From Negaprion brevirostris (lineage: Eukaryota): a DNA stretch of 64,000 nt. The stretch is taken from contig JARDVH010000042.1 of NCBI GenBank assembly GCA_030324005.1, positions 108,506,412 to 108,570,411 of the forward strand, given 5' to 3'. Below, piece after piece: positions 27,157-55,242 of the stretch. The position numbers and the translations under genes were made by a program. The notes under the pieces were generated by a model that was given only the letters and a program-made list of their open reading frames with translations, ran no database searches and had not been told where the DNA came from. Numbering within the stretch: position 1 is the first letter of the stretch; each line of letters opens with the position of its first letter.

Positions 27157-27219
27157 GTAGGTTTTCTTCCGTTGCCAGATTCATGATTGTTGGGGTGCTT
27201 GTTAGTCTGATGAGGTCTG

Positions 27220-27252
27220 TCCCTAATATCTAGTGACTGACTGCATGAAGCA
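27220..27252 (+). promoter_or_regulatory. 5' arm of a putative long-range intronic RNA duplex (partner 55208-55242); contains TGCATG
   Basis: TCCCTAATATC, CTGCAT and GAAGCA are exact reverse complements, in collinear order, of GATATTAGGGA, ATGCAG and TGCTTC at 55208-55242. Confidence 0.6.
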
Positions 27253-30200
27253 AGTGGTATTCCAGTAAACCACAGCTCGACTTCAAAAGGAGAGAAAAAA
27301 GGAGAAATATAGGATTGAAAAGGTTTAGATTTCATCGCCGTGTTCGTCTTTACAGTGACTAACAAGCACTTTGAGTGATGAATAGGAACTTTCGTAGTTA
27401 GTTGACCTTTCTTGTCCCGTTGCTTCGAACACAGTTTTGATGTCAAATGTTCGACTTCAAAAATGACTTAACAATACGGATCATAGCAATGTATAATGTA
27501 CCATCTATTTCTTTTTAAAGTTGGTTCTAATTAAAAGCCAGGTAGTGACATTTCTAATGACCAGAAGTAATAACCTGACCTGTAGTTTGTTTCATAAGAA
27601 TTTGACATTCCTCTCTTTTCTTAAAAAAAAGATCTGCATTTCACTGGACATGGAACAATGGGAAAACCTGTAAAGGTCAACTAACTACAAAACTTCTAAG
27701 TGTCATTACTTTCAATAAAGCCCTAAAGGTCAAATGACAAGATTGAATCCTGTGCACTACTCAATGAAATTGTAATTATGTTTCACATTTAAAATTATTT
27801 CTAGTGGCATTGACTGCTGTTGTAATACCTATTTCACAGATTGTTTTCTAATAGAGTTGGTTTTTAAATAGATTTATAGATGGCAGGCCTGCATGTCAAC
27901 GCAGACTTAATCCAACCTCCATCTGTTTGTACCTTTAAAGTCAGCTCGGGGAGATAACGTTTAATCATTACTGGTATTTCGGGTCAAAATTTATTTCAGC
28001 AATCTACATTGGCAATAACACTACCACTANNNNNNNTGGAATGTAACCATCAATGTAATTCAAGCTGTAGAATATACAGATTCCTTTCCTTTGATGCTGG
28101 GAGGGATGGGTGGAGGATCAGCCAGTTCTATTGAACAACGTATGGTTGTTTAAATCTTTTAAAACAGCCAAAGAAGTGGGTAACATTGGGGGGAATTTCC
28201 CAAGGCAAGAGAAGGTGAATTTTTGGTCCATGCTGGGAGTTAAATCTCCAAAGAAATATCAGACCAGGGTGCAGACATCATCCTGCCTGCTTTCTGGCTT
28301 CACCCAGAGCAGGTTTGAAGGTGCACAGGGAAAGCCCCTTCATGCTGCCCGATAAGACGTTTGTTCACATTGTCAAATAAGCAACTTTGTGATTAACCAA
28401 GTATTTCTAGCTTTCACATACAGGTGACATATTTCCTAAGCTGTCAGCAACTCCCCAGGTTCAGCCAGGTGAATGCACAGCGGGGAGTGCTTCACCAATG
28501 AAATTGATAGGCTAGAAAGCTTTTGATCAGTACGTCTGAAGAGCTCCAGCCATGGCCAAGTGAGAGACTGCTGCTCACAGCATTCCTCCTTTCCCATTTG
28601 CCGTGATATTCACAGATTTCCAGAAAATGGGCCACGTACTGCAGGAAAATTCGGGTTGCTTCTTCCATAAGGGAGGCAAAGGTTGGAAGGGCACTCAGCC
28701 CTAGGCCGAAGTCCAATACAAATTCCTATCAGTTTTACCGAGCAGTCTATTTGTCCATCCTCAGCTTCAGCACTGGAGAAAATAGATGCTCTGGAAGTAA
28801 ATAATTCAAACTGCTTGGTGTGCAGGACAGCATTTGAGAATTCAGAAATTTTGCAATATGCTGTCTTTCTGACATCATTGTGTTTTGGGAAGGAGTGAGC
28901 TTGGTTCCCGTGAACATGAGACACCCTGCTCAGAAACCTTCCTATGAAGATGATATGTGCCACATATCCCACCAACCGAATCGCTGGAGGGGAAGTAGTG
29001 AACCCGTAAGGAAACAAATCCCACCATACCTACCCAGCCAATTATTCAATCCGGGAATCTTGGCTGCTTGCTTTCCAAAGATGTGCTTCCCCCATAGTCG
29101 TAGCAGCACAGTGACTATTGTATCCCATGGAGATTTGATCTTTCCTCATTGTGCATAGTCAATAATGCTCAATTCCATCCCTGATCATCCAGTGCTTTAC
29201 TGGAGCAGTTAAGTGACACAGCATGAACCACTTTTACCAGAAGCCTATTTCCACAGCTCAATGGAGGAAACCTATTCACACTCATGCACACAAATAAATT
29301 TATGGCTTGCAAAATGACAGGGGGAGAAAAGCAGCAGAAGGCTCCTGGGGTCCCACTTCTGTGGAAGACTCTTTCCAGCTTTCTATTTTATTTTTCAGCT
29401 TTTCAATTCCAGCACATTATTATGCTCAAAATGACATTAACTGCAGTCCCAGATTAATTATATACCGCTGGCACTTTGAGGTACACATTAATATGAATTT
29501 GCCCGTTCAGCCCTATCTGCAGACATACCCATTGCAGCATGCAGGTGGGAATTAACATAAAGGTGTTTGGCTCTCATTCAGTTGCTGCTTTTGTCATGTT
29601 CAATAGCAGTGACGTTTTGGGAATACATTTTTCCCAGGACTGTGTGAGAAGGGAAGACAGGGGAGCCATGGAATACTCTCCCCTGTGGTTGTTATGATTT
29701 GATGTATTCCTGTGATACATTGCACCAGCTGAAAATGAACTGTTACTCAAAAAATAGATGCTGCACTTCTGCTAAAAATATACGTATATAAACATGGGGA
29801 AATAGATGTAAAATGATCAATTTTTAACAGAACATTTGTCACTTGACCTTTAAGGAGAAAAGCAGGGTGTATGTGATACCCATCAGGGTGGGTGTCACTT
29901 ACAGACAGTAAACAGGCCTCTCTGTGTGTGATAGGTAGGTACTCTGGCATTTCACTTAGATCTTTCTCTTTGGAATGTAGAAATATTTGAAACAGATATA
30001 GAAGGTAAAGCGACCCACTGTTTGCAGCTGTTCAAGAAGGGTAGGTAATAAAAAAAAGGATTAGAGGAATTAAAGAGATATACATGATGTAAGAGCTATG
30101 ATCACAGGTAGGTAATATTACTTGTAGGCTCCATTTTATTTTCCTTATCACCCCATTTTCTAGCCTTACGTTATGTACGAAATTATTTTTGAGTTTACTT

Positions 30201-30532
30201 TAATTTGCTTTTCTAAGCCAAGGTGTTGTATTTGATTTATGAATACANNNNNNNNNNNNNNNNNNNNNNNNNNNNNNNNNNNNNNNNNNNNNNNNNNNNN
30301 NNNNNNNNNNNNNNNNNNNNNNNNNNNNNNNNNNNNNNNNNNNNNNNTTTAATTTGCTTTTCTAAGCCAAGGTGTTGAATTTGATTTATGAATACACGTT
30401 TTGTATTTATGATTTTTGGTTTCTTTAAGTTGTTGGATCTGCTCCCATTTGTATTTTATTTTTAATTTTCTTCCACGATTCCCTCACCTTTCCACCTGTA
30501 CTTGACCCAACTTCCAAAAACAAACCAATTAG

Positions 30533-30838
30533 AGCCATCAGCCCCACCTCAGGACATCAAGTGCACGAGCCCAAGTTCAACCAGCATTTTGGTAAGTTGG
30601 CGGCCCCCACCAGCAGAAAACCAGAATGGCATCATCACCAAATACTCCATCAAATACACGTCAAGTGACCGAGAAGCCAGCTCGCGCAATGAGGTCTCGG
30701 ATATTCCGCCAGATGCCACACAGTACTTGCTGGAACATTTGGAGAAGTGGACGGAGTACCGCATCATTATGACTGCCCACACGGATGTTGGACCTGGCCC
30801 AGAGAGCTCTCCCATACTGATTCGCACCGATGAGGATG
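30533..30838 (+). CDS. PTPRD: PTPRD exon, FNIII-4: (K)[22 protein letters not shown]...[32 protein letters not shown]
   Basis: AATTAG| acceptor and GATG|GTATGT donor. 306 nt, phase 1/1. A+AG gives K, matching recalled [30 protein letters not shown]. Within ORF 30502..30852. Confidence 0.96.
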
Positions 30839-31771
30839 GTATGTTGGCTTAGCACAACCAATCAGCAACTTTCTCGGCGAGCAACTCTTCCTTTGCCGAC
30901 ACTTTGCACCTTTTCTGTCACTGTTGTGTCTGGTCCTCCGTTCCACCGAATCTCCCCCTCTCTGTTCCTTTTTGAACCACCAACTCTGGAACCTCTCTAC
31001 ACCTATTACAGTGCAAAAATTGCTTGTATTTTAAGTCTCCCCTGTCTGACGTGTCTTTTTTCTTCCCTCACCACTTTATGTATTAGATTACTGTTCTTAA
31101 TATTGCTCCCACCACTTANNNNNNNNNNNNNNNNNNNNNNNNNNNNNNNNNNNNNNNNNNNNNNNNNNNNNNNNNNNNNNNNNNNNNNNNNNNNNNNNNN
31201 NNNNNNNNNNNNNNNNNNCACCACCCCCCCCCCCCCCCCCACCCGACCCCCACCAATAATATCCCTTTCAATTACTTTTATATGACATAAATTATTCAAT
31301 CTTCTTCTCAGTGCACAAGCACATCCCAGAAACATACTTGCATTATTTTTGGCTGGATTTCATGAGATGTTGCTCAGTGAAAAGGGAACAGTCCTGGGTC
31401 GGAGACACCCCAATAGTGGCTGTCATTTTTTTTTCCACGACAAATATATTTTTGAAACCATTTTTTAAAAAAATCAGATATAAAAAAATCTTGCATTTTG
31501 CGATGCTTTGGCATTCAAAGCATTATCCTTGGCTGCCTTTTATCCTGTGTTTTTCGTATTTGTACCTTTTCCTCCATGTTTTTCACATTTTTTCCACATT
31601 TTTTGGTATTTTAGAAAGATGCAGCTCAGGCATTTTTCAACGTATGAAGCATTTTTGGACACGGTTTCCTCCATCCCTTTTGAACAGTAGTGGGTCTGTC
31701 CTTGTGCTGCTGATTGGGAGGGACATAGTGTCATCATCAGTCTTTTTTTTAACCAAATGGTATTCTTCCAG

Positions 31772-31965
31772 TTCCTAGTGGTCCTCCTCGCAAAGTCGAG
31801 GTAGAGGCTTTGAACTCAACAGCTATTACAGTGTCATGGCGCTCACCCGTTCCAAATAAGCAGCACGGACAAATTCGCGGCTACCAAGTCCACTATGTGA
31901 GGATGGAACATGGAGAGCCAAGAGGACAGCCCATGCTGAAAGATGTCATGCTGGCAGATGCACAG
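31772..31965 (+). CDS. PTPRD: PTPRD exon, first part of FNIII-5: (V)[64 protein letters not shown]
   Basis: TTCTTCCAG| acceptor and CAG|GTACGC donor. 194 nt, phase 1 in, phase 0 out. Near-identical to recalled PTPRD sequence. Missed by the ORF track. Confidence 0.96.
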
Positions 31966-32904
31966 GTACGCTGGCTGAAATATTGATACTGATTTAGTGA
32001 CTGTACACTTTCATCAAGTTCCATTGTGTAAAGAAAAAGTATACATTTGTATCAGTTCAATATCGCTTTTCATTCTCCCAGCTGGATTGTTTCAATGAAG
32101 GGAACTTGCTTATCTTTAAGTTGGTCACATTTGAGGCAACTCACTGTTCCTCCAGCACCCACCCTCCCTCAGTATCCTGAAAGATGTGGCGATACAAGAC
32201 CAAAATTCGAGCAATATGGAAGATGGTTGGGTGTAGAGTCTGTTCATTCCTTTAGAATAGATGTAGGCAGCACTTGGTCTAATTTTAAAAATGATTTTCT
32301 TCATTAAATAAAACTTAAAATTAAAAACTACAGAAACGAAGAGAGAGAAGTTGGGGACTGGCTTCATGGCCAGGCCCTGCACAGGACTGAACTGAACAGG
32401 TAGCTGGTACTGCAATACATGAATGTTTATCTGTGTTATTGAAAAAGCCGGGCGCACACAGTGTGCTTACATGGGCTTACATAGATAATTGGCAGCTGTG
32501 TGGCCGTGAAAATTTGTTTAGCATCATTTCTACTAACGTTGTATTTTGAAAAAATGCGGTCAATTTCTAAACTCATTCTGGAAATGTGGTCAAGTTAGCT
32601 TAAAAGCTTAGCATAGTTAGTTACATAGGCAAAAAAAACCTTAAAATGAAGCCTTTTAATGAAGCACACCATACAAAGGATCCCAGAGTGGGGAAGAGAG
32701 AGTTGGGGTGTGTGTGCAGAGGAAAAGTAGGTTTTTGGGCTGAGGTGTTGATGATTGATCATTTAAGCTTTGGGTTGAGTCGGGCATCTGAATCTGTACA
32801 CTGACCACCAGCTCTATTCCCTTCCTCGGTGACTCATTAAAGCTGACTCGAGATGGTGCTCAACCTTACTGCTATATTCAGAACTAGGTTTCAGGTTCCA
32901 GGTT

Positions 32905-33320
32905 GGGGCGGCACGGTAGCTTCACAGCTCCAGGGTCCGGGGTTTGATTCTCGGCTCAGGTCACGGAGTTTGCACATACTCCTTGTGTCTGCATGGGTTT
33001 CGTCCAGGTACTCCGGTTTCCTCCCACAGTCCAAAGATGTGCGGGTTAGGTTGATTGGCCATGCTAAGAAATTGCCCCCTAGTGTCCAGGGNNNNNNNNN
33101 NNNNNNNNNNNNNNNNNNNNNNNNNNNNNNNNNNNNNNNNNNNNNNNNNNNNNNNNNNNNNNNNNNNNNNNNNNNNNNNNNNNNNNNNNNNAGGTTAGAG
33201 GGATTAGTGGGTATAATATGTAGGGATATGGGGGTAAGGCCTGGGTGGGATTGTGTTCAGTGCAGACTTGATGGGCCAAAGGGCCTCTTTCTGCACTGTA
33301 GTGTTCTATGATTCTATGAT
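32905..33320 (+). mobile_element. HE1-like SINE (gap inside)
   Basis: GGGGCGGCACGGT head, V-domain, and terminal TTCTATGATTCTATGAT repeats. Confidence 0.85.
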
Positions 33321-33751
33321 CCTGCTGCTACTATTTCTGCAAAGTTGGTACCAAAGCCCCAATCCTTATAGGCATTATCTCTGAACTGAACTTCCCCCAG
33401 TACTCACTGTACCAGCCTTCTGAACTGCTTTCCACAGATACCAGCTTCTCTCTAGTGTCCTTCCCCCGCATTCTGTCTGATGCTAGGTCCCATTAGCTCC
33501 CTTTCTGCAGCACATCGGATTTTGAACTCTCACCTGCACACCTAGACTAACTGGACCTGCAGCCTCACTCCACTCTATGGCCCCTCCTTTGTTTTCCAGT
33601 TCCCTTTACTGACCTATTATTGGTGATAAAGCCTTCAGTTGCCTCAGCCCTGCTCAGTGCATCTGCCTCCCTATTCTCCTTTGCCTTTACTTAACCTACC
33701 TGCGAAAGCTGTATTGAGTAACACTTCCAGTCAGCTATTGTTGCATAAATA

Positions 33752-34260
33752 GTAGAATTTGTAGAATCCCTGCAGCACAGAAGGAGGCCATTTGGCCCAT
33801 TGATCCTGCACCAACAACAATCCCACCCAGGCCCTATACCCTCAATCCCATATATATTTACCTTGCTAATGCCCCTGACACTGAAGGGCAATTTAATATG
33901 TCTAATTAACCTTACTCATCTTTTGGCACAGTGGTTAGCACTGCTGTCTCACATCACCAGGTTCGATTCCCGGCCTGGGTCACTGTCTGTGCGGAATCTG
34001 CACATTCTCCCCATGTCTATGTGTGTTTCTTCTGGGTGCTCTGGTTTCCTCCACAGTCCAAAAGACGTGCTGGTTAGGTGCATTGGTCATGCTATATTCT
34101 CCCTCAGTGTACCCGAACAGGGGCCGGAGTGTGGCGACTTGGGGACTTTTACAGTAACTTCATTGCAGTGTTAGTGTAAGCCTACTTGTGACACCAGTAA
34201 ATAAACTTTACTTGATTACTGGGCAGTGGGAGGAAATCGGAGCACCCAGAGAACAAACGC
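33752..34260. mobile_element. Minus-strand HE1-like SINE interrupted by a plus-strand tail-B V-SINE (33924-34213)
   Basis: Host breaks at ...CATCTTT and resumes at GTGGGAGGAAATCGGAGCACCCAGAG after the inserted copy. Confidence 0.8.
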
Positions 34261-34708
34261 TTGCCTTCAGTCATTTTCTACATGAGGTGTCTTTTCTCCA
34301 TAAAAGAGATGTGATTCCATGTTGTTTTTGTCCTGCACCTAGCTTTAGGCAGCAGTTAAGATTGGAGGCATGCAGTTGTCTACAGCAATACAAAGAGGCT
34401 AGCTTCTGTTTTATTGGTATTTACTGGGGGAAGTTTTGGCTTTTCCAGTTCTTAACATCACAGGGGTAATAGGGAGAGAGGCAACCCTGTTGAAGGGGGA
34501 AGCAGATGTGGTTGACAGGAGGATGATAGAAGACTGTCTGTGTGTGTGAGGCTGTGAGGAAATCACATGGAGTTAATTGCAGCAGAGGTGCGAGACTCTA
34601 CTCATGTTTCTGAACCATAAAACAGATGGATGAGACAGCCCCTTCACTTCCAGTCTTAATTTCTTATTTGAGTATGTCTTATTTTGAGTATGTTTTGCAC
34701 AAGATAAT

Positions 34709-35055
34709 GGGGAGGCCTGGTGGTATTGTCACTAGATTAATAATCCAGAGACCCAGGGTAAGATCTGGAGGCTCAGGTTCAAATCCCACCACAGCAGGTG
34801 GTGATATTTGAATTCAATAAAAACCTGGAATTAGAAGTCTAATGATGACCATAGGACCATTGTCGGTTGTCATAAAAACCTGTCTGCGTCACTGACGACC
34901 TTTAGGGAAGGAAATTTGCCCTCCTTATCTGGTCTGGCCTACGTGTGACTCTAGAGCCACAGAAATGTGGTTGATTCTCAACTGTCCTCTGAAATGGAGG
35001 GCAATTAGTAATGGGCAGTATGTGCTGGCCCAAATCCCGTAAATGAATAAAAAAA
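34709..35055 (+). mobile_element. SINE family C copy
   Basis: Same head, core and tail as 22908-23335. Confidence 0.8.
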
Positions 35056-37119
35056 TTAAATGTAAATTTGAAGAAATAAAATAAATGCGAACACATTGTT
35101 TAATCCTAGAAGTGAGTGAGTGCCCATAAGATTAGCAGATAAATCCTAAACATCCTTAAACGGAATTCCTTTCTCCTGTTTTGTGATGGAAGAAGTATCA
35201 AATCTGTGTATTAATCTTTTGACCCTGATATCAGCAGCAGCCATTTCTGTGCTAAATTCTCTTTCATAGCCTGGCCAGTCAAACAGATCAGAGTTTTCTG
35301 AGAGTCAGTTGTGCAGTATTTTTGAAGTTTTTTTAATCTGAAGGCCAGGAGGATGATTCTGTTTCTATCCAAGAACGCATCTCAAGAAATTACAAGTGCC
35401 CAGCCCGTGAATTATCCTCCATTAATATAAAGAAGACAAAACCATGGACTGTGCTCAATCACCTGGGCCAAACTTCTTATCCCTTTTCATCTATTTATTT
35501 TGCTTAAAGTTGGCACGGTATTTATTCAGCGCCAACCTGGCCAGCCCAGACCAACTGCAAACAGTGAGTAGGTGACCTGTCCCAGGTCTGAGGCAGTCGT
35601 ACCCTATTATTGTATTAGGGGTTGTACAAGAATTTATGGATGCTCTCATCTTCCACTCAACACAGGTGAAATAGGTAACTTGACCATATTAGGGTGGGGA
35701 TGGTGATCCTTCTAAGCCATGTATGCAGGCAGCAATTTGAAAGTTCCCATGCGGGTCATGCACACTAAAGTTATCATTCCATTTGACCCTTTAAATTACC
35801 CTGTCCGGAATTCTTCGATATTGTATCCCCTATCTCTGCTGTCANNNNNNNNNNNNACTCAGCCAAATCTCCATTCCTAGCAGCAGGATCGGAGATTCCG
35901 AGCAGGTGGGGTTGGAGAATTCCTCACTTATTGGTGGTGTGCAACAGAAGAAAATGAGAGAGTACACAGGTCCTGTTGCCAGTCCCTAGTCCTCCTGTGG
36001 TGGTAGGTTGGGAGATTTTATTATCATTATTTTCTGAGAATCCATTAAATGTGACAAAAGTAAGAGCATAAAAGGTGGATGAGTTACAACCCACCCGCCA
36101 TTTGATTTAACTGCCAATAATGTTAAGTGAATAATAAAAGTAATAACCATTTCTTTCAAGCGTTGGGGCAATCTTTTTTTTCACACTTGAACAGCCAAAA
36201 AAAATCAGGTGTTATAACTATCATCAACTGACTGAATAATGCTATATGGATTTCATTATTTTATTATAATGTCTTAAAGAGACATTCCTCGCTCTTTCTC
36301 TACCTCTGTATTCAATAATAGGAAATGAATAAACACAAATGCATAGAACACTTTGAGGCACATTCCAGAACTGCATTAGTTTCAAAGTTTGCAAAGTAGT
36401 CACAATGAAAAGTGACTGAATGAAAGCAGGAGAAATATTACAGCCCCACAACAGGGTATTAATATTTGCTAATACATAGAAGATACATATTGCAGATAAA
36501 AAATTAATGGCATTCAGAACTGAGGAGCACATCAGACATGGCCAACCTACAGGGAGAAAAGGTGAATTTGATGATGCACAAGTTATTCTCGTGTGTTCAA
36601 TAATGTTAATTATATCCGTTTCCTAACTGTGGCCTTACGTTTTAATCTGTTCTGAGGGCACTTTTTTTTCACTGTCCCAGTTTTAAATTTAAATGGGGAT
36701 TGCCAACCATAACTGCAGGCTCCAAAACAGAACAATAATAATATGAAAAGAGAGAGGGGCTGGGGGTTTTATCCTCCCTGATAATCACATTTTGATTTAA
36801 TGTTTTAAGTTTCCTTTGGACTTTGGTTTCTGTTCGGGCTGTCCCCCCCCCTTCCTTTTTGGGGGCTGCCCCTCTTAATTTGTCCCTCAGTTAATTTGAG
36901 TTCGTCTACTTGTTATGTATGTANNNNNNNNNNNNNNNNNNNNNNNNNNNNNNNNNNNNNNNNNNNNNNNNNNNNNNNNNNNNNNNNNNNNNNNNNNNNN
37001 NNNNNNNNNNNNNNNNNNNNNNNTCTTAATTTGTCCCTCAGTTAATTTGAGTTCGTCTACTTGTTAGGTATGTAAAAGAGATACCACTATGTTGTCCCAG
37101 ATCAGTGATTTTTTTCCAG

Positions 37120-40419: not shown

Positions 40420-40590
40420 GAGCTGGGTCAAAATCCCAGTACCCCCTCCTTCACAGCACTGTGGGTGTACTTGCACAACACGGACTGCAGCAGTTCAAGA
40501 AGGCAGCTTGCCACCATCTTCTCAAAGGCAATCGGGAATAGGCAATAAATGCCGGCCTAGCCAGCGACACCCATACCCGTTGACAGAATT
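40420..40590 (+). mobile_element. LINE 3' tail fragment (same family as 37120-37905)
   Basis: GGACTGCAGCAGTTCAAGAAGGCAGC...CTTCTCAAAGGCAAT...AATAAATGCCGGCCTAGCCAGCGAC. Confidence 0.7.
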
Positions 40591-41207: not shown

Positions 41208-41234
41208 TGGGAAACTGATGACTCTGCTGAACAT
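41208..41234 (+). CDS. PTPRD: PTPRD mini-exon C (meC / LASE-c equivalent), 27 nt, WETDDSAEH
   Basis: Long pyrimidine tract ending CAATCAG|, then TGGGAAACTGATGACTCTGCTGAACAT, then |GTGAGT. Phase 0/0. Fits between ...LADAQ and EMIISGL..., where recalled human PTPRD has WEFDDTTEH. Confidence 0.92.
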
Positions 41235-43500: not shown

Positions 43501-43618
43501 GAGATGATCATTTCTGGGCTCTTGCCTGAAACTACCTACTCTGTCACTGTGACAGCTTACACAACAAAAGGAGATGGAGCTCGTAGCAGAGCCAAGCTTG
43601 TGGTAACCACTGGTGCAG
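43501..43618 (+). CDS. PTPRD: PTPRD exon, end of FNIII-5: [39 protein letters not shown]
   Basis: T-rich tract ending GTTCAG| and donor GCAG|GTGAGC. 118 nt, phase 0 in, phase 1 out. Within ORF 43420..43668. Confidence 0.96.
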
Positions 43619-45954
43619 GTGAGCGATTCCTGGAGATAATTATTGGGTTTCGGGCAGTCGATCCATAACACCAACTAACGTCCAGATTTAAAACACCAGT
43701 TCCAACTATTTCAAATTCAAACTTTTAATACTAGGGTGGTTATTTCTGGAGTTCAGACTCCCCTGCAGCTCCCCCAACCCCCCACCCCCCCNNNNNNNNN
43801 NAAACAGCTGCGATCCATTCTGTCTGCTTCCTGTGCCAAAGCATCAACGTCAAGAATGGATTCACACAAATCCTGTCAGTTTTTATGGACAAGCTTGCTG
43901 TATGGTTCATGGACGGTAGCTGTGTAAGATAGCATACAAATGTGGCTTCTTTCACAAAATGATCAATACAAGCAACAAGAAATCCTAGTTCCCACCTCTG
44001 CCGGTTAAAACTGAATGATATCCTGTTTGGTTTTACTTGGCATCTAGAGTTTCCCCTTATTTGTGATGGCCTGCCTACATCTTCCATGATTTCATATGTA
44101 TCCATTCAACACTATCTGGTTCATTGAGTAAGCAGAGACCAAAGCACTCATTTGAGTTTCTGATATTCAAAAATGGATGGTATGATTTTTCACCACGCAG
44201 ATTAGACAGGCCTACCCAAAAGCTTTGCAGCTAACATCATCATCCCGACCTAATACGTTGTATCCAGCATGAACTTTTCCGCTATCTGTCTCATTAGTAC
44301 TCTGGGCAATCCCGAATCAGCATGGTATCATCACAAATATTCAATGGAAGGCAGTGGGAATAGTTCTGACGGTTCACAGCCATGTAAGATGCGTGATTGT
44401 GATTTGATGGGCAGTTTTCAATCCCTGTTGATTTTCCTTTCTGTTGCTTTTAGTTAAATGAACAATGGGAGTGATGTGCAACAGGAAATTGATTCAATAT
44501 CGCTTGTCTCCCAATATAGTGCAAAATCAAGTTTCCGCCCAGTGCCTTAACAAACATTTGGCCAGCGAGTGAATGACACTTCTGCAGTCTCGGCAGATGA
44601 AAATGAGTATTTGAGTGTGGTGGGGGAGGCCTACAGGCCAGGGCGTGGGGGTATATGGGCTGCAGGGAGAAAAGTGTCGATAGATCTAGGAAAAGGTTGT
44701 GCCAGCATAACAATACCAAGATTCAGCAGTGCCTCATGTTTTCTGATAATTGGGTGCAAAGCTGACAGTAAAACACCAATAAATCTCATTAACTGTGGGT
44801 GTTTATGCATGCATCCGTATGTAGTGTCATTCTAGTGAGAGCAGATCATGCCTCTGATCTTCGAGTCTTGAGAGCTGTGAACACCTGTTATCCATAAGTG
44901 CAGCTCAGAACTGGCAAGAACCTGAAGATGTCCAGCCGCAGCAGCGTAAAATAGCTTTTCCTGCTGTTACGGTTCTCATATGTCACATGTAAATTGGGAC
45001 TTGGCATTCTAAATCTCCGTCTGGCCTAGTTGGGGGACGAGCAGCAGTGGACTGCTCTCTGTACATGAGTCCACATCACTGGGGACCAGGGCTTGGAGAG
45101 TATTGCATGGAGCAATCGCTTGGCTTTTAAGCTATTTTGCAGGCTCCCTGGCTGCTTGTAACTTTTGCAATCTGGATGAGTCTGTGTGTTCCAAGTATTC
45201 ATCGAATGTGAGAACTTGCAACTTTTGTTCAATGATTTGAGGTGATTGCTCCTCCCAATTAGGCTTTACATTCGCCAAGCACCACGAACTCTTAGTTGTT
45301 TGCTAGTTTGGTTCCTGGACTTTGTGTTTGATCCTCAGCTTAGTCAAAATGTCAGTCTGCAAGTCCACAATGAATGTAGTCTGTGAATGAGTATTGGTGG
45401 GGATATTAATCTGGTGTTGTCAGACTTCTTACTGGGGATATTGGGCCAGGGTCATTTTGACTCTCTCTTGCACAGTATTGTCCATGCCTGCGTGATCCTG
45501 CAGAGGGCGATTGCCATCGCTTGGTGTCTCCAGTGTTTTGCAGACATAACTAAGAATGTGACTATTATTTTTGATTTTATTTTACTTTATTGAAGTAATA
45601 ATTCTGTTTAAATTCCTTTATTAGTTGTGTCTTTTCAAACAAGGATGGCATGTGTGAAAAATTCTGTTGATGATATGGGGACAACCCAGTGTTAATCTTT
45701 ACGGATGTATTTAAAAATGCATACATGGCAGAATACATTGAAGATTCAGGCTTACAGCTGTTGGACTCTAAAGCATATTCCAAGAGTGAGGAATTATTGG
45801 CAATTGTGACCAACAGAGGAGCAGTGTTAGAAGAGGAACTTAGGGAATTGAGTTACTCCGCTGTGCCACATGGTGGCAAAATATTTAAGGATCTTCTCCA
45901 AGATGAAACCAACATCTTGTGGCTGTAAAGGACACACCTGCTGTTATTGTAGTT

Positions 45955-47300
45955 AAAGACCAGTTAGCTGAACATCTGTCAGAGGGAAAATGTTAGAAAC
46001 TATTATTAAAGACGTTACAGCGGAGCACTGTGATAAATTCAAGGTAATCAGAGTCAGCATGGTTTTGTGAAATGTTTATCATGTTTAATCAATTTATTTG
46101 AGTTGTTTTAAGAAGTGCTGAATAAAGGGGAATGTGATGGGTGTATTGTACTTAGATTTCCAGAAGGCATGAGATATGGTGCCATATCAAAGGTTACTTT
46201 GGAAAATCAGCTGATAGTGGAGGGGAAACCAATTGGCATGGGTGGAAGATTGGCTGGCTATCAGGAAACAGAGAATAGAATAAATAGGTATTTTCTTGGT
46301 TGATGAGCTGTAACAAGTGGTGTGCCACAAGGATGAATGCTGGTTCTTCAACTTTTTTGCAGTTTACATCAATGACTTGGGTGAGGGGGCCAAAGGTATG
46401 GTGACTAAATTTGCTGAGGACAAGAAAAAGATAGGACAGTAAGCTGTGAGGAGGACGTAAGGAGGGTAAAATGGGTTAAGAAAGATTAAGACAGTGAGCA
46501 AGATTTGACAAATGGAGTATAATGTGACAAAATGTGAAAGTGTCCGTTTTGGCGTAAAGAATAAAAAGGACATATATTAAATAAATAGTAAGAGACTGGA
46601 GAGGAATCTGGGTGTCATAGTGCATAGATTGTAAAACATTAGAATGAAAGTAATTAGGAAAAGGATGGAATTATATTGTTTAATACAAAGGGCATTGAAT
46701 ATAGAAGTAGAGAGTTTATGCCTCTGTTTTACCAATGCCCTGTATAACTATGTCTGGAATACAGTGTACAGTATTCTTATTTAAAGAAGGATGTAAATGC
46801 ATTGGAGCAGTTTAGAAGATTTACTGGACTACAACCTGCAATGGGATCCCACTCTAATCCTTGAGACTTGTCTTATGAGGAAAGGTTATTCAGGCTATAC
46901 TTGTATCCACTGGAGTTTTGATGAAAAAGAGGCAACTTGATTGAAATGTATAAAACCCTGAGGCGTCTTAACGGAGTGGATGTGAAGAGGAAGTTTCTTC
47001 TTGTAAGAAAACCTAAAACCAGGGGTCACTGTTTAAAAATATGGGGTTGCCCATTCAGACAGAGNNNNNNNNNNNNAATTATTACTCTCAGGTGGTGAGT
47101 CTTTAGAATTTTCTTTCTCAAAAGGCAAAGAAAACAGTCTCTGAATATTTTGAATGCAGACCCAGATAGATGTTTGATGAACAAAGTGGTTAAAGATTGT
47201 CAGGAGTAGGTGGAAATGTAGAGTTGAGGTTACGAACAGATCAGACATGATCTTGTTGAATAGCGAAGTGGGTTCAAAGAGGCAAATTGTCTGTTCTGGC
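45955..47300 (+). mobile_element. Decayed CR1 LINE ORF2 and 3' end
   Basis: SQHGFVK, VTSGVPQG, INDL...KFAEDK and QMEYNVTKCESVRFG remnants, then a CR1 3' UTR. Confidence 0.85.
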
Positions 47301-49789
47301 ACGGTCATATGCACTAAATGCACTTTTCACTGGATCAATTTGGAGTAACATTAGCCAGAAAACATGGTTTGTCTAAATGTATGTTGTGCGAGAAAATCAA
47401 TATTTCTGGAGTTTTTTTTGCCTGTGTTTGTACGATTTTGGCTCTTGAAGTGTGGGGAGGATGAACTTTGGTTGACTGATGATTATAATATTTAAGACAC
47501 AGAATGTACATCTGACTTTGCTTCAGAAAGTTGGGTGGAACCATGTTGGGAGGTATTACCAGGTCACACTGATTAGTTCAAGGGGCAGAATGAAGAGTAG
47601 CTCTTAAAGAAGCAAAGTGCAGGATCAGATACATGGTGCTGAATTATTGCCGTAAGCTTCATGTTGCAGAGGGAACAGCAGCTCAGGGTGAGCAGTGATT
47701 ACTCTGCTGTGTCTGGAGCTGGAGGAGGCAGGAGAAGAGTGCGTGTTTCGTGCTGCTGGTGAGATTGAGGTTAAAAGAAGCTCAAGGTACTTTTCAGCCC
47801 AATGACTCTGAAATAAACAGCAGCTGTTAGCTCTGTGAAGCTGGGCACTGGGGCAAAGGAAAGTCTGTGAGCAGTGGGTTTCTGCTCTGTGTAGCTGAGA
47901 GCTGGAATTGTGCTGATAACTAGATGCTGGGACATAGCCTTATCAATTCAGTGGGACACAGTCTCAGGAGAAGAGATTGACCAACTTGGAGGCGAGCAGT
48001 CATTGTTGCAGCCTGAGTTGGAGTAGCTTTTAAGGGAAATCTAGGGCTTGATCTTCGAAAGGCAGGAACTAAAATCTCTGGAGGAACAATTTTATGACTC
48101 ACTGATATCTAGGTAGTAGGTTGCTGAGAAAATTTGGGGGACCTGTCTTGGTTTTAGTTTGCCGTTTAACATGCAGTTTGTGGTGTGCACGGCCACAGTT
48201 CAGCTGTTAACTCATGTTTATCTCATTAATTCTGACTGTTTAGAGTATAAGATAAATTCTGTTGACTGTTTACTTTGCTGACTTTTACGTAGTAAAAGTT
48301 CTTTTTTTTTTAAACAGTGGAACCTTGTGGCTTTATTTTCTTAGTAAGTACCTGGGACATGAGGGAGGTGGGGTTTGGAAGGGGCAAGCTTGGAGATGTC
48401 CGGAAGGCCAGCAGTCAGGGAATGGGGAGATAGGAGAGGCAGGGATGCGGAGTTGCAGGGCTGGCCAGCGATCAGGAGGCTGGCAGTGCAAAGCTACTGC
48501 ACATGTGCCGATCTCCGCTATGACAGATCGGTTCATGCGCAGTGGCCTGCTCAGCGCTATGCCGCCGGCCTCTCCAGCAGGAATAGGCCCCCCTTACTGA
48601 TTTTCATCACAATTCACACTAGTGCACTGTGACACACAGAGTGTAGGAGATTCATTTTGAAAATGCCGCTAAGAAAAAAAGCGGGATTTACTCCAGTTTT
48701 TACGCCAGTTCGGCACTTGGAATTTTTTTGTGGAGAATCCTGGGCCATAGTTCTTCAGAGGTAACAGGCTTATCAAGTTCCACAGAACTGTGAGGCAATA
48801 CAGTTGCAGAGATAATAACTGTAAAATAACATCACTGAGGTGTCTCCAAATGCATAGTTATGGAGGTTGAGAAACCCACAGTGATGACCATGGCTAACAT
48901 CAACTCCAAAATGATCCATTCCTTCAACGAGTAGACAGCCTGAAGTAAGAACACAAAGATCCTAGGGTTTAATTGCACACTTCTATCATCTTATCTCATG
49001 CCACCTCAAGCACTGAATTAATGTTTCCGTATCATAAAGCATCCCAAGTATAATTGGACATAAAATTGTGATTGATTACTCTTTTGGCTAAATGCAGAGG
49101 AATAAAAAAAAATTCCTGTTCATTGGACATATTGAATCCTTGTATTTCCACAATAGGTTAACATAGGACCAGCCACCCAATCAAACCGCTCAAGCCTCTT
49201 CAACCTGGGCAATTACCATAAAATCAACCAATCAGGGAATCATTTTTGGTCACAATGACAGACATTAAATCTATCTTTATTTCTGCAGCCAAGACAAAAA
49301 AGGGATGGTATTAACTTAGTAGTGACATTTTCTTTGAAAAAGGTGCTGTTGTTTAAGACCTGTAAAGGCCTTGCTAATGAGTTTCAGTGGGAAATGCAGC
49401 TATTTGATACCTGGGAACTTTAAAACAGCCAGGTACAAATTAGTTCGCTCAGTCAGCTGGACTTTATTCAACAAAGGACGGATAAATTCTTCCACAGAGT
49501 AGCTGCTCAATGTGGATTTTCCTCTGTTCGTTGTCCTGTATTAGTTGATTCTGTATTATTAGTACTGTCTTAGAGCATAGCTTCACAGGGTATGTGCCCA
49601 CACCCCAACCATTTAAGTATTCATCCTTTGAACAATACAATGCTGGTACGCTCGCTGCAGCTTGATCGGCTGAGAAGCTGGGCTTGTAACACTTCAAACA
49701 ACTGAGCAGTACAGTAAACTGTTGTTAAGTTCTAATGCAATGGCTAACTATATGTGACATGAAATTATATTTATAACCCAGCTATTACG

Positions 49790-50460
49790 CAGAACTTACA
49801 GCATAGAAATAGACCATTCAGCCCAACTGTTCTATGCTCCACACAAGCTTGCTCCCACTCAGCTTCATCTAAACCTATCAGCATACCCTTCTATTATTTT
49901 GGCCCTCGCATATTTATCAAGCTTCCCTTTAATTTTCCATGAGCATATTTTGTTAAATATCTAGTCATTCGTGGGATGTGGGCACCGCCGGATGGGCTGG
50001 CATTTATTGCCCATACCTGAGGGCATTTTAGAGTCAACCACATTGAGGTGGATGTGGAGTCACATATAGGCCAGGCCGAGTAAGGATGGCAGATTTCCTT
50101 CCTTAAAGGACATCAGTGAACCACGTTTTACGACAGTTGATAATGGTTTCGTTATTAGACTTTTAATTCCAGGTTAATATTGAATTCAGATTTCACCTTC
50201 TACCATGTTGGGATTTGAACCTAGGTCCCCAGAGCATTACTCTTGGTCTCTGGTTTACTAGCCCAGTGACAATACCATTTAATTACCGCCTCCTCCAATT
50301 ACAGTATATGGTAGAGAGTTCCACATTCTCATCACTCCCTGGATAAAGATACCTCTTTCGAATTTCTTAGTGGATTTACCAGTGACTAGTTTATATTTAT
50401 GAACTCTTGTTTTTTTTATTTTCGCACAAGTGAAAACATCTTTCATCAAGCTCTTTCATC
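49790..50460 (-). mobile_element. CR1 3' end interrupted by a minus-strand SINE family C copy (49965-50296)
   Basis: The CR1 tail ACAGCATAGAAATAGACCATTCAGCCC resumes at ...GGTAGAGAGTTCCACATTCTCATCACT after the SINE. Confidence 0.7.
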
Positions 50461-50665
50461 ATTTTTGATACCTCAAGGTCCTCTCATTCATGGGAAATTG
50501 GAAATCCCATGGTTTGGATGTATAATTAAATTGTTACTATTACTAGAGAAAGGAGACCTAATAAGATAATAATTAAAATATAGTTCTCGATCCAAGTTAC
50601 TCAAGGACTGTGTACAATCTTTAAAACTTTATTTGTAGTTTTTTTTTTTAATTCAACACTTAAGT

Positions 50666-50955
50666 TCATAGAATCCTCACAGTACAGAAGGAGGCCATTT
50701 GATTCTATACTGACCACAATCCCACCCAGACCCTATTCCCGTAACGTCACACATTTACCCTGCTAATCCCCCTAACACTATGGTCAATTTAGAATGGCTA
50801 ATCCACCCTAACCCACACATCTTTAGACTGTGGCAGGCAATCCACAGAGACACGGGGAGAACGTGCAAACTCTACACAGACAGTGACCCAAGGCCAGAAT
50901 TGAATCTGAGTTCGTGGTGCTGTGAGGCAGCAGTGCTAACCACTGTGCCACCATC
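50666..50955 (-). mobile_element. HE1-like SINE with a small internal deletion
   Basis: TCATAGAATCC...GAAGGAGGCCATT through GCAGCAGTGCTAACCACTGTGCCACC. Confidence 0.85.
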
Positions 50956-53900
50956 GGTCACAAATATGAACAGCGTGAATCAGTTGCCGTGAGCCAGACA
51001 CCAATCATTCAAACTCATTGTTCTGCTGAATTCCTTCCAGCTTTTCACTCACAGGAGCTGGATTAACATTCTCAATTGTTACTTGGCCAGTTGAAAAGCT
51101 GTTTAGCAGTGCAAGAGTCATGAAATGGCCATTATTATAGTCAAAACCCAATTTCTTCAGCTGGGACCAACAGAATCTAAGAGGAGATCAGCCAGCAGTG
51201 ACTTGAAGTAGTTAACATTTCCACAACAGGATGTACACCCCTCAAGGTAGAAAACAAATCACTCAGTTACTTCACTTAATTCCCAAGCCAACTTTTGCTT
51301 TATCACGTGGGATATTCTTTGCAAGTAATAAAATGTAAAGCGTAACAGAACGCACAGCTCGAGAAAAAGAAAGAACAGCTAACCTTAACATTGAAAATGG
51401 CCGTAGAGATTGTTCCTGTGTAGGTTTCAGTCAGTAATGTCACCACTTTCAATTTGGATACTGAGAGCTTCTGACCACAGTGGAGCCACTGTGTGTATGA
51501 AGCATTATAAGGAAGGGGGGTGGGGAGCATAGTTTTCATCCTGCTTTATGGAGCAACAGAATTCAGAGTGCTGTCAGATGACAGTTGGGGAATGAGGACT
51601 CTTGCTGACAAACTCTGTGGGCATGATCTTACTGCCCATTCATGCCACACCACCGCCCTCGCCTGCGNNNNNNNNNNNNNNNNNNNNNNNNNNNNNNNNN
51701 NNNNNNNNNNNNNNNNNNNNNNNNNNNNNNNNNNNNNNNNNNNNNNNNNNNNNNNNNNNNNNNNNNNNNNNNNNNNNNNNNNNNNNNNNNNNNNNNNNNN
51801 NNNNNNNNNNNNNNNNNNNNNNNNNNNNNNNNNNNNNNNNNNNNNNNNNNNNNNNNNNNNNNNNNNNNNNNNNNNNNNNNNNNNNNNNNNNNNNNNNNNN
51901 NNNNNNNNNNNNNNNNNNNNNNNNNNNNNNNNNNNNNNNNNNNNNNNNNNNNNNNNNNNNNNNNNNNNNNNTTTTCTTTCTGTCTGGGCCACTAAATAAA
52001 AATTCTGAACTAATTGTTTGGAATGAGAATTTTTTGCATGTTGCTGGGAGGAGCTGGTCTTTTATGTGGACAGCTGAGAGGAAGGAGGGAAGAATGAGCG
52101 TTTAAATAAAATAAATGCATTTTGAGTGAACACTGAAAATGTACCATGATTGCACATATTACAATGTAGATAATCAGGAACAAGTAGTTTTGGGGACAAG
52201 TACGTTTCCTAAAATCTTAGTAAAGTTTGAAAGGACCAAACTGCTTTGTAGTTCGTATTGCACGTTTTATAGCCGAGACATTAATATTGGTGTTATCAAA
52301 AGATGAATACTTAGTTTATTGCTAATTAATGTTGGGGAATTCTTTAATTGTGTTAAATATGGTATATAACTGGTTATACCATCAGCCTATATGATAAGAT
52401 TTATACTAGTTATGAAATATCATAGATCAGTAGATTTATTATTTTGCAGTTACTGGTGAAAGGTAAATATGATAACTGCTCAGATAACAGAGGGAAACAG
52501 GAATAGGCCATTCAGGTCTGTATTTAAGACCATAAACTGACCTTCCACTTTATTTCCTCTACCCTGTCTGCATATCCCTTAATTTACATAGTATCAAAAA
52601 ATCTATTGATAAGTGTCTTGAATTTGTTAGAGCAAAGAACATTTGCCTAGACACTGTTGGACCCCTTGAAATTTTCTTGTGGACCTTTAGAGGTCCTGGA
52701 TCTTTAGTTGAGTGCACCTGCACTAAATGGTTCCTGAGACGAAAAGATTATCTTACATGGAGCAATTGAGTTGACTACACCTATGTTCCGTAGAATTTAG
52801 ATTTAGACTGAGGTTTTGCCAGATCTGACACAAGAGGCACACAAAACACAGATGCTTATGTCCTATTCCATAGTTAGTCTATTTCAGAGGCTATACTTAA
52901 TGGACACCATTTCACATCAAGCATGATTGACTTACCACCTGCTCCAGGTGTATTGTAAGGATTTACAGGTTTATAATCATCTGCTTGGCTCTTACAAACA
53001 CACCTTCCTTTACTATTGAGACCTGGGGTAGGACTCAAATCTGGAACCTCTGGTTCAGAGTGCGAAACGCTACCCATTGTGCCAGAAGAATCCTGCCTTA
53101 GAATTTAGAAACCGCAGGATTTGACAGGGTAGATGCTTGAAGAATGTGTACTCTGGCTAGGAAATTGAGAATGAGAGATCAGTCTCAGATTGAGGAATCA
53201 GTCACTTAGGACTGAGGTGAGGATAAATTCCGTCACTTAAATGGTTGTTGAACCTTTGGGATTCTCCAATCAGCAGAGTTACAAATGTTTAGGGGACGAT
53301 CTTACCTTCTAGTCCCACTGGTGGATGGGCGGGGTGAACCAGTAAGATTGTGAGAGGGGCAAAAAATCAGGATTGTGACCCAGATATCTGGCCCTTCTTG
53401 GGCATGAGGCTGATTTCAGTACTTAAATATGATTTAAATATTCGTGAGCTTGAGACACAATTGTCATCCCCACCCACCCCCTGGGCTGACCAAAGGGTGA
53501 GGGGGACTGATTGGCCAAGGAGGCCAACAGTTATGTGCTGGGTGGGGGAAGGGGGAGGCGCACAGTATGCAGGTGGTGAAGATGACTGACAGATCTCTCT
53601 GTTCTGTGCAAGCTTTCTGGCAAGCTTGTGCCTCAACCCCTCCCCTACTGGCAGGAAACAGATTGAGCATTTTCCTTGCACAGAGTGGCACAAGATTGGA
53701 CTTGTGCCCTTGCCAAAATAAAACGGATCTGAAACTCTCCCATTTTCACACTTGTTCAGGAATTAGTATTTTTTTGGGAAGATATCCCTTTCGTCTTTGA
53801 GTATATTCAAGATATCAATTGATAGATTTTTGAATGCTGAGGGAATGAAGGGTTATTGGTAATGTCACAATGCTCAAATTATGGTGGAAAGTCAGCATCA

Positions 53901-54299
53901 TCTTATTGAGTGGGTGGCTGAATGATGCGCTGCCACCCCTCTTTCTGATATGAACAACTACCAGATTTAATGATAACGGTTAAATATTAAAAGATGGATT
54001 CTGAGTCCTGAATCAGTCGCAAGCAGTAGTCCTTCAGCAATGCTAGAAAATTGTAATTTTGTCTTAAATGTTCAAATTATATTCTGAACTGTTGGAACAT
54101 TTGCCTTGATTTGATAGTTTAAACCTTTCAACTTAATTGGAGCTTCCTTATTAATTGGTGTTTTTTTTGGTCAATTCTTGACTATCAACGTAATTTGTCA
54201 AACCGTTTTGCCACATATTTGAAGTAGTTGTCTTAATCTTATTAGCACTAGTCCATATTTTCATCGGACCCAGAACCCTTAGGCCTTTTCAAAAGATTA

Positions 54300-54440
54300 T
54301 GGATGGAATCTTACAGCCATTCACACCGGTGGGATTTTCTGGTCTCGCTGCAGAGAACAGAGATTTGGCTGTGTGCCAAATTCTCTGTCCTCGCTTGCAG
54401 TGGCAGCAAGGCATGAATGGCCAGTAAGATCGTGCCCATA
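54300..54440. mobile_element. Short MITE-like element
   Basis: Termini GGATGGAATCTTAC ... GTAAGATCGTGCCC; interior similar to 39263-39426. Confidence 0.5.
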
Positions 54441-54599
54441 ATAGGGAGGTAGTTCTCAGGGACCGCAGGTTTTTAGATTTGGAGCATAACTCATTTTTGA
54501 ATTGACATCTACTTGAGATAAGTGTATCGTTCTTGCACACAAATCTTATGGGGACATTAAGGAAATAATTCTAATTCCTGTCTTACTTCATTGTTACAG

Positions 54600-55187
54600 T
54601 TCCTGGGAAACCCAGACTTCTAGTTAGTCATACACAGATGAACACTGCTCTTATTCAGTGGCACTCTCCTGTAGAAACCTTTGGACCCATTCTGGGTTAT
54701 CGGTTAAAGTTTGGACGCAAAGACTCTGAACCGCTAACGACGTTGGAATTTTCGGAGAAGGATGATCATTACACAGCCACTGACATCCATAGAGGCACCT
54801 CTTACGTCTTCAAACTCTCGTCAAAAAATAAAGTTGGCTTCGGGGAAGAGATTGTGAAAGAAATCGTAATTCCGGAAGAACGACCAAGTGGATTTCCCCA
54901 AAACCCACACGCTGAAAGCTCCACAGCGTCAACTATTCAGCTGAGCTGGCAGCCACCAGTCTTAGCAGAACGGAATGGTTTTATCACGAAATACAATGTA
55001 TTGTACAGAGATATCAACAGCCCAAACAATCGAATAGAGCTCTCTGTTTTTTCTCCTGAGACAAGTCTGAAGCTCACCAACCTAAAACCAGACACCACTT
55101 ATGATATCAAAGTGAGAGCTCATACAAGTAAAGGCCCTGGTCCATATAGTCCTAGTGTTCAATTCCGGACCCTGCCCCTGGATCCAG
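54600..55187 (+). CDS. PTPRD: PTPRD exon, FNIII-6 and FNIII-7: (V)[20 protein letters not shown]...[26 protein letters not shown]
   Basis: TTGTTACAG| acceptor and CCAG|GTAGGA donor. 588 nt, phase 1/1. ORF 54638..55216. The segments [19 protein letters not shown] and [11 protein letters not shown] favour PTPRD over PTPRF/PTPRS. Confidence 0.97.
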
Positions 55188-55207
55188 GTAGGATTTGTCT
55201 CTTTGTG

Positions 55208-55242
55208 TGCTTCTAGATGCAGGTGGGTGACGATATTAGGGA
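55208..55242 (+). promoter_or_regulatory. 3' arm of a putative long-range intronic RNA duplex (partner 27220-27252)
   Basis: TGCTTC-tag-ATGCAG-gtgggtgac-GATATTAGGGA, starting 21 nt downstream of the FN7 exon donor. Confidence 0.6.

What the first reader, a model, noticed from the sequence alone, without database searches (positions are those of the whole stretch)
27220..55242. Putative 28-kb RNA bridge that loops out the entire FN4-FN7 cassette of PTPRD
Seen in sequence: 64 nt after the FN3 exon donor (27156) is TCCCTAATATC-tagtgactga-CTGCAT-GAAGCA (27220-27252). 21 nt after the FN7 exon donor (55187) is TGCTTC-tag-ATGCAG-gtgggtgac-GATATTAGGGA (55208-55242). These give collinear perfect helices of 11, 6 and 6 bp, plus about 6 more pairs (one G-U) in the middle, roughly 29 bp in total. 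Neither arm lies in a recognisable TE. The loop encloses all five cassette exons and the FN7 donor, and leaves the FN3 donor and the FN8 acceptor outside, with an effective intron under 400 nt. Established: LAR-family PTPRD/PTPRS have short isoforms lacking FN4-7, and long-range intronic pairing can drive exon skipping. Inference: this duplex is the cis switch for long versus short PTPRD. The RBFOX site TGCATG (27242-27247) inside the 5' arm could couple protein binding to duplex formation. I do not know whether this pairing has been described.
Basis: partly seen in the sequence, partly recalled or inferred. Interest (0 to 1): 0.85.

Follow-up and report, generated by a model that had tools for sequence, protein, structure and literature searches.

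The report
Long RNA helix bracketing PTPRD cassette
In a shark's gene for the synapse protein PTPRD, two short complementary intron stretches 28 kb apart sit exactly at the ends of a five-exon block that sharks are annotated to skip, so they are predicted to pair as RNA and likely help, together with four extra donor-like splice sites, to make the short protein form.

Summary
Arms 27220-27252 and 55208-55242 give 29 bp (-35.6 kcal/mol), are single-copy, and each is the other's best partner in the window. The gene is shark PTPRD; 29 protein models from six shark species carry the exact FN3-to-FN8 junction. The pair ranks 1 of 721 splice-flank pairs by Watson-Crick score, but by energy alone such duplexes are common (about 5,000 as strong in the window), and local folding removes most of the gain. 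Conservation is only partly shown: the 5' arm is unchanged in a shark about 6% diverged (not significant alone), and the start of the 3' intron is conserved to mammals at peptide level. The PTPRS paralogue has its own duplex after the same two donors; PTPRF has none. New here: four extra donor-like sites follow the FN7 donor in PTPRD and PTPRS, none in PTPRF; the first lies inside the 3' arm. Best reading (0.5): a loop-out helix like that proposed for Dystonin, helped by decoy donors. Function is untested. Not found in the papers searched (the full human catalogue could not be read) nor earlier in this scan on other DNA.

The parts
27012..27156 (+). Exon ending FN3; weak donor CAA|GTAGGT, outside the loop
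   Evidence: lowest U1-pairing energy (-5.3, equal to the PTPRS FN3 donor) of the sites scored
27220..27252 (+). 5' arm of the predicted long-range helix
   Evidence: no listed difference in four other shark runs
27242..27247 (+). TGCATG (RBFOX-type motif, label recalled) inside the 5' arm
   Evidence: 22 copies in the 64-kb window; no GCATG at the PTPRS equivalent
27394..27688 (+). Local stem-loop closed by a perfect 17-bp helix (27394-27410 with 27672-27688); role unknown, possibly unrelated
   Evidence: longest perfect helix in the unmasked window; z -3.5, 0 of 100 shuffles
30533..30838 (+). Cassette exon FN4 (also skipped alone)
31772..31965 (+). Cassette exon FN5 first part
41208..41234 (+). 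27-nt micro-exon in FN5 (meC)
   Evidence: meC named in PMC12598525 passages
43501..43618 (+). Cassette exon FN5 second part
54600..55187 (+). Cassette exon FN6-FN7; its donor lies inside the loop
55208..55242 (+). 3' arm of the predicted helix; contains the first donor-like site CAG|GTGGGT
55220..55455 (+). Four extra donor-like sites [AC]AG|GTRR, GT at 55223, 55296, 55386, 55448 (+36, +109, +199, +261); PTPRS has four at +32, +101, +168, +260; PTPRF none
55560..55657 (+). Exon starting FN8 (tandem acceptors 55557 and 55560), outside the loop

Best explanation
The two arms are complementary over 29 bp and are predicted to pair in the PTPRD pre-mRNA, which would loop out the five FN4-FN7 exons, put the FN3 donor within about 380 nt of the FN8 acceptor and so likely favour the short isoform, with four donor-like sites likely slowing the competing FN7-to-FN8 splice. 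Shown: complementarity, position, single copy, the skip junction in shark gene models, the donor-like cluster in PTPRD and PTPRS. Inferred: (1) the weak FN3 donor stays unspliced while 28 kb are transcribed; (2) U1 bound at the decoy donors keeps the 370-nt FN7-FN8 intron in place long enough; (3) the helix forms 21 nt behind the FN7 donor, hinders that donor and presents the FN3 donor, so that FN3 and not FN4 or FN5 is joined to FN8; (4) proteins that bind the 5' arm (RBFOX-type, at TGCATG) or local folds would keep the arm closed in cells that make the long form. It is a facilitating element, not necessarily the only switch.
For: Each arm's best partner among 12,152 window positions is the other arm. 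Rank 1 of 721 splice-flank pairs in three paralogues by Watson-Crick score, 2 of 721 with G-U neutral, and the pair coincides with the annotated skip: 29 of 95 shark models that hold FN3 and FN8 join them directly, the other 66 join FN7 to FN8, none joins FN4 or FN5 to FN8 (biased sample of gene models). PTPRS has a duplex after the same two donors (3 of 300 shuffles; PTPRD 7 of 300; PTPRF 274 of 300); cognate arms pair better than swapped ones (-35.6 and -34.4 against -16.0 and -23.2) and share a core CTG(A/C)CTG: CAGGTGG with different, still pairing bases beside it. In the most diverged shark run (86 differences in 1,341 nt) the first 93 intron bases have one difference, none in the arm, and five follow within 26 nt of its end. 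Eleven unnamed mammal-like proteins read through the FN7 donor as GRICLL(M/V)AFLL-stop against shark [13 protein letters not shown]. Four donor-like sites follow only the FN7 donors of PTPRD and PTPRS; the other 25 of 27 mapped donors have 0 or 1. Precedents: Dystonin box 1/box 2, ATE1 R2R5 over 30 kb.
Against: Energy is not exceptional: 28 of 1,506 random pairs, rank 4,958 of 20,976, 218 of 1,000 shuffles with an energy-like score on 200-nt flanks. Opening the arms costs 10.5 + 18.0 kcal/mol; expected arm pairs fall from 28 to 17 to 0.2 as more flanking sequence is co-folded (PTPRS 8 to 0). Invariance of the arm alone is not significant (P 0.11-0.18; 32% of 33-nt windows of the listed part are also unchanged) and private differences of three runs are partly hidden. 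The PTPRS duplex is G-U rich, unremarkable by Watson-Crick score (6,682 of 20,000), lies 100 nt further from the donor, its window was chosen after seeing it, and arm sequences of the two genes are not significantly alike. No compensatory change between orthologues was seen or testable. FN4-only skipping (46 models) needs another cause. Much longer repeat-derived inverted pairs lie in and around the loop.
Confidence: 0.5

Rival explanations
1. The complementarity is incidental. Both arms lie in donor-proximal sequence conserved for protein or U1 binding; skipping is set by weak donors, decoy donors and splicing factors, with no long-range helix.
For: Equal-energy duplexes are common in this gene; the first 730 nt of the FN3 intron hold several other unchanged blocks; the shared core CAGGTGG is itself a donor-like site, which could explain its retention; the helix disappears in wide co-folds; the scan picks the best case from very many windows.
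Against: Rank 1 of 721 flank pairs falls on the one known multi-exon skip; a cognate duplex at like positions in PTPRS and none in PTPRF; the conserved block ends at the last base of the 5' arm.
Confidence: 0.33
2. The helix is real but its job is to cover the AG|GT site inside the 3' arm. That site would act as a stepping stone (FN3 donor to 55223, then on to FN8; or 55223 to FN8 first, leaving a 35-nt stub too short for the FN7 donor), and pairing would time or block this two-step route, possibly favouring the long form.
For: CAG|GTG after a pyrimidine-rich stretch at +36 in PTPRD and +32 in PTPRS, paired in both predicted helices; strong donors downstream could define a cryptic exon; the mammal-like peptides stop at the codon where the shark has CAG (compatible with TAG, inferred). 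Either two-step route gives the observed TMET-MF junction.
Against: The minimal recursive motif Y5+N0-4YAGGT is not met at any site in either intron; the regenerated donor in PTPRS would be very weak; none of 29 short models carries the 6-nt insert that use of the first AG would give; no PTPRD/PTPRS/PTPRF entry in the four supplementary files of PMC10156609.
Confidence: 0.14

Closest known systems
Dystonin (DST) exons 47-52, box 1/box 2 (Pervouchine 2014, PMC4174434; section 9 read)
   Same: A conserved complementary pair brackets a cluster of exons skipped as a block; one inner exon can also be skipped alone; box 1 contains a GCATG Rbfox motif. Also a prediction in that paper.
   Different: About 10 kb against 28 kb; conservation across placental mammals shown there, only partly here; box 1 is >400 nt from the exon, the arms here are 64 and 21 nt from donors; no decoy-donor cluster described in that section.
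ATE1 R2-R5 ultra-long-range helix (PMC7797038; abstract and passages)
   Same: Intronic helix over about 30 kb in a vertebrate gene, showing that this span can work.
   Different: Validated by compensatory mutants and antisense oligos; it tunes two mutually exclusive exons and does not loop out a five-exon block.
PCCR exon loop-outs and RNA bridges (Kalmykova 2021, PMC8052449; passages)
   Same: Meets the length and energy thresholds; surrounds exons and has an RBP motif in one arm, as in the GPR126 exon 24/RBFOX2 example.
   Different: The catalogue's distance limit is 10,000 nt; it is built on human conserved introns; false discovery rates of 10 to over 50% are reported.
Decoy exons / decoy splice sites promoting intron retention (PMC7373989; abstract start and passages)
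   Same: Unannotated splice-site-like elements inside an intron proposed to compete with its excision.
   Different: Described mainly for introns >1 kb and defined by junction reads; here a 370-nt intron, donor-like sites only, no reads, and the proposed outcome is multi-exon skipping.

Membership tests
Conserved complementary pair that loops out exons (PCCR / Dystonin type) | Intronic complementary match of 10 nt or more, energy at most -15 kcal/mol, helix of 5 bp or more | tested here: met
   29 bp, -35.6 kcal/mol, 11-bp helix; thresholds
Conserved complementary pair that loops out exons (PCCR / Dystonin type) | Outside exons and repeats | tested here: met
Conserved complementary pair that loops out exons (PCCR / Dystonin type) | Surrounds exons that are alternatively skipped | tested here: met
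   29 models of six other shark species with the FN3-FN8 junction; known in mammals; not shown from RNA of this species
Conserved complementary pair that loops out exons (PCCR / Dystonin type) | Both arms conserved above their flanks | tested here: inconclusive
   5' arm unchanged in close sharks, P 0.11-0.18 alone; 3' side only by read-through peptides
Conserved complementary pair that loops out exons (PCCR / Dystonin type) | Compensatory substitutions | tested here: inconclusive
   Only between paralogues PTPRD and PTPRS, where homology of the arms is not statistically established
Conserved complementary pair that loops out exons (PCCR / Dystonin type) | Splicing changes on disruption and is restored by compensation | not testable with these tools
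   needs minigene or antisense experiment
RBFOX RNA bridge | Binding motif within 50 nt of one arm and a regulated exon within 50 nt of the mate | tested here: met
   TGCATG inside the 5' arm, FN7 exon 21 nt from the 3' arm; definition; motif absent at the PTPRS equivalent
RBFOX RNA bridge | Protein binds there and the exon responds to its depletion | not testable with these tools
   no CLIP or knock-down data on hand
Recursive splice site | Motif Y5+ N0-4 YAG|GT | tested here: not met
   0 matches in the FN7-FN8 intron region of PTPRD and of PTPRS; motif
Recursive splice site | Intermediate junction or lariat reads | not tested
   no RNA reads could be laid on the 3' side
Decoy exon / decoy splice sites | Cryptic sites supported by junction reads whose blocking raises intron removal | not testable with these tools
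   only the motif cluster was shown; four spliced mammal-like proteins read into this intron, a weak hint of retention

The most novel reading that the evidence does not exclude
PTPRD and PTPRS inherited, from before their duplication early in vertebrate history, a two-part RNA switch for the FN4-FN7 cassette: a 28-40 kb helix that tethers the FN3 donor, plus an evenly placed array of four decoy donors that holds the FN7-FN8 intron open, the first decoy being covered by the helix itself; PTPRF lost both. It would be the first cis mechanism for the long/short ectodomain choice of these synaptic organisers and one antisense oligo could flip it.
Probability: 0.2. Interest if true: 0.85.

Novelty: new member of a known kind. 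Interest (0 to 1): 0.58.

Why it matters
FN4-FN7 skipping removes 411 residues from the ectodomain of a major presynaptic adhesion receptor; one review says its consequences are poorly understood (PMC12598525) and another that the mechanisms regulating LAR-family isoforms are unknown (PMC8711739). Two 35-nt arms and four donor-like sites are small, direct targets: they make the question testable with one alignment and one minigene, and would give a handle to force either isoform. If real, it would equal the longest validated vertebrate splicing helix among the papers read (ATE1, 30 kb) and be a rare case guiding a five-exon skip.

Tried and rejected
Getting intron DNA from distant vertebrates failed: the metagenome scan gave 2 loci with an 18-residue chance-like match; a search for FN3 read-through peptides gave 0 hits from 1 candidate; the representative search was swamped by multi-FN3 proteins; no reads were laid on the 3' side, so nucleotide conservation of the 3' arm and RNA junction reads remain open. 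Rfam: 0 matches in 26000-57000. Transposon origin of arms or of the 17-bp stem: rejected, one match each in the own genome, though that search skips very common words. A local hairpin of the 3' arm over the FN7 donor: not special, z -0.33, 71 of 200 shuffles. A 6-nt micro-exon ATGCAG: in 0 of 29 short models. A look-alike of the PTPRD 3' arm at +148..187 of the PTPRS intron: 424 of 5,000 random stretches score as well. Two weaker crossing duplexes between the same introns: within chance. Literature: searches (RNA structure terms with PTPRD or PTPRS) listed no paper holding the gene name together with those terms; searches gave reviews and micro-exon papers only. Held supplements of PMC8052449 (5 files), PMC4174434 (2 files, one further not searched), PMC10691357 and PMC10156609 have no PTPRD/PTPRS entry; three large files of PMC8052449, presumably the full catalogue, were unreadable, PMC10573301 had no readable supplement, and Pervouchine 2012 and Lovci 2013 are not held, so a listing there cannot be excluded. 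Earlier scan notes: none on this gene.
Full report
Observation. RNAduplex pairs 27220-27252 with 55208-55242 over 29 bp (helices 11, 2, 3, 1+6, 6; one G-U), -35.6 kcal/mol. They are outside the window's repeats and their neighbourhoods match only themselves in the own genome (that search skips very common words). TGCATG lies at 27242, one of 22 in the window.

Gene and cassette. The FN6-7 exon is 93-97% identical to shark proteins, and the full-length ones among them are named PTPRD (some shorter isoforms of the same genes are auto-named 'S'). tblastn and splice-site inspection give eight exons in the window; five lie in the loop and sum to 411 codons. Among 95 shark protein models that contain both FN3 and FN8, 29 (six species) join them directly as TMET-MFAKNF, the junction 27156-55560, and 66 join FN7 to FN8; none joins FN4 or FN5 to FN8. 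These are gene models, listed from the best 120 hits of two searches and cluster look-ups, so the sample is biased. A further 46 skip FN4 alone, which the helix cannot explain. The FN4-7-less isoform is known in mammals (PMC12598525, passages).

Is it more than chance? Each arm's best partner among 12,152 positions of the window is the other arm. With a Watson-Crick alignment score the 100-nt flanks score 29, reached by 12 of 20,000 random unique pairs and 0 of 1,000 shuffles; at 200 nt, 71 of 20,000 and 3 of 1,000. Among 721 pairs of 100-nt splice flanks in PTPRD, PTPRS and PTPRF it ranks first (second with G-U neutral; second and seventh of 720 at 200 nt). Energy tells a weaker story: on a fixed grid it scores -30.4, matched by 28 of 1,506 random pairs (8 reach -34); with an energy-like score at 200 nt 218 of 1,000 shuffles match it; in an all-against-all scan with my simplified energy model it ranks 4,958 of 20,976 clusters. 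Opening costs are 10.5 and 18.0 kcal/mol, and co-folding gives 28, 17 and 0.2 expected arm pairs as context widens. So it is a clean, AU-rich helix in a telling place, not an unusually stable one.

Conservation. Four shark DNA runs were laid on 27160-28500. The most diverged has 86 differences in 1,341 nt; the 40 listed rows run in order to 27959 and I take them as complete for that run to there. It has one difference in 27160-27252, none in the arm, then five at 27253-27278. For the arm alone P is 0.11-0.18, for the 93-nt block 0.016-0.05, and 32% of 33-nt windows in that part are also unchanged; private differences of the other three runs are partly hidden (85 rows not shown). For the 3' side there is only peptide evidence: 11 unnamed proteins of the mammal type read through the FN7 donor as GRICLL(M/V)AFLL-stop, two turtle models as GRI, the shark as [13 protein letters not shown]. 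Codon by codon this is compatible with an ungapped homologue to +35 whose differences include the bulged TAG (inference). Nothing is known of the 11-bp helix outside sharks.

Paralogues as a natural control. The genome holds two paralogues: C84 is PTPRF, C150 is PTPRS by elimination. That PTPRS also skips FN4-7 and PTPRF does not is recalled, not tested here. In PTPRS the best pairing between the first 250 nt after FN3 and 100 nt after FN7 is matched by 3 of 300 shuffles, in PTPRD by 7, in PTPRF by 274 (window chosen after seeing the PTPRS hit). Cognate arms give -35.6 and -34.4, swapped arms -16.0 and -23.2. Both helices contain CTG(A/C)CTG paired to CAGGTGG, flanked by CAT:ATG in PTPRD and GG:CC in PTPRS. 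Against this, the PTPRS helix is G-U rich, ordinary by Watson-Crick score, and the arms are not significantly alike between genes, though the intron starts after FN7 rank 3 of 351 donor pairs in similarity.

The 300 nt after the FN7 donor hold four further [AC]AG|GTRR sites in PTPRD (+36, +109, +199, +261) and four in PTPRS (+32, +101, +168, +260); PTPRF has none, and the other 25 of 27 mapped donors have 0 (22) or 1 (3). The motif was chosen from PTPRD, so PTPRS is the independent test (Poisson about 1e-4); one other such cluster occurs in 264 kb, in a PTPRF intron. The first site lies in the 3' arm and is paired in both predicted helices. The minimal recursive-site motif is not met (motif from PMC10156609, passages).

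How it most likely works. A five-exon skip needs the FN3 donor to wait for 28 kb of transcription, the FN8 acceptor to escape the FN7 donor 370 nt upstream, and the right donor to be chosen. The weak FN3 donor, the decoy cluster and the helix each fit one of these needs. I put 0.5 on the helix being a functional aid to skipping, 0.33 on incidental complementarity of elements conserved for other reasons, and 0.14 on a real helix whose job is to cover the AG|GT site of a two-step route. All functional steps are inferred.

Comparison with what is known. The closest case is Dystonin exons 47-52, a block skip bracketed by a conserved pair about 10 kb apart with GCATG in box 1 (PMC4174434, section 9). 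ATE1 R2R5 shows that 30 kb can work (PMC7797038, passages). The human PCCR catalogue stops at 10 kb and reports 10 to over 50% false discoveries (PMC8052449, passages). It works like these; membership lacks the conservation and compensation tests. Searches listed no paper joining PTPRD or PTPRS with RNA-structure terms, and the readable supplements have no entry; the large catalogue files and two key papers could not be read. A 2026 PTPRD splicing paper has no occurrence of FNIII, fibronectin or secondary structure (PMC13080001, term search). The scan's earlier notes hold nothing on this gene.

Verdict. A real, well-placed sequence feature; probably a new member of the exon loop-out class, with an additional paralogue-shared decoy-donor array; unproven. 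Interest 0.58.

Noticed in passing
window 27394-27410 / 27672-27688: Perfect 17-bp stem closing a 260-nt loop, the longest perfect helix in the unmasked window (z -3.5). In one search the outermost pair differs in all four other shark runs, the other 16 show no listed change, and two changes in the next inner helix (27656, 27657) turn into G-U pairs.
   Followed up: partly
window 27521-27541: Inside that loop, a 21-nt stretch between a pyrimidine tract + AAG and CAG|GTAGT would add an in-frame stop if included after FN3; it lies in an 88-nt block with no listed difference in the most diverged run. Possible poison micro-exon, unsupported by any transcript.
   Followed up: no
window 55554-55560: Tandem acceptor choice tracks the donor in shark gene models: all 29 short models use the distal AG, while 53 of 66 FN7-containing models use the proximal AG (models are not independent).
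   Followed up: partly
window 30533-30838: FN4 alone is skipped in 46 shark models; no outstanding flank duplex was seen around it.
   Followed up: partly
proteins P0069, P0074, P0365, P0366: Unnamed mammal-like proteins with upstream exons spliced but reading into the FN7-FN8 intron and stopping: hint of retention of this intron or of a soluble ectodomain form; assembly chimeras are possible. No A(A/T)TAAA in the shark intron.
   Followed up: partly
window 21870-22063 / 60073-60266 and others: Repeat-derived inverted pairs of 100-190 nt at about 80% complementarity flank and fill the cassette; the longest encloses the FN3 to FN8 exons and could favour editing or back-splicing.
   Followed up: no
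window 27274-27288 x 55320-55334 and 27397-27432 x 55434-55468: Two weaker duplexes between the same two introns that would cross the main helix; the second covers the fourth donor-like site and competes with the 17-bp stem. Within chance on their own.
   Followed up: partly
G000:C150 (L019, L023) and G000:C84 (L029-L032): Paralogues: C84 is PTPRF by its match to PTPRF FN7 (162 bits against 94 for C150); C150 is taken as PTPRS by elimination. FN3-to-FN7 donor spans are 40.7 kb and 22.6 kb; no meC match was found in either by tblastn.
   Followed up: yes
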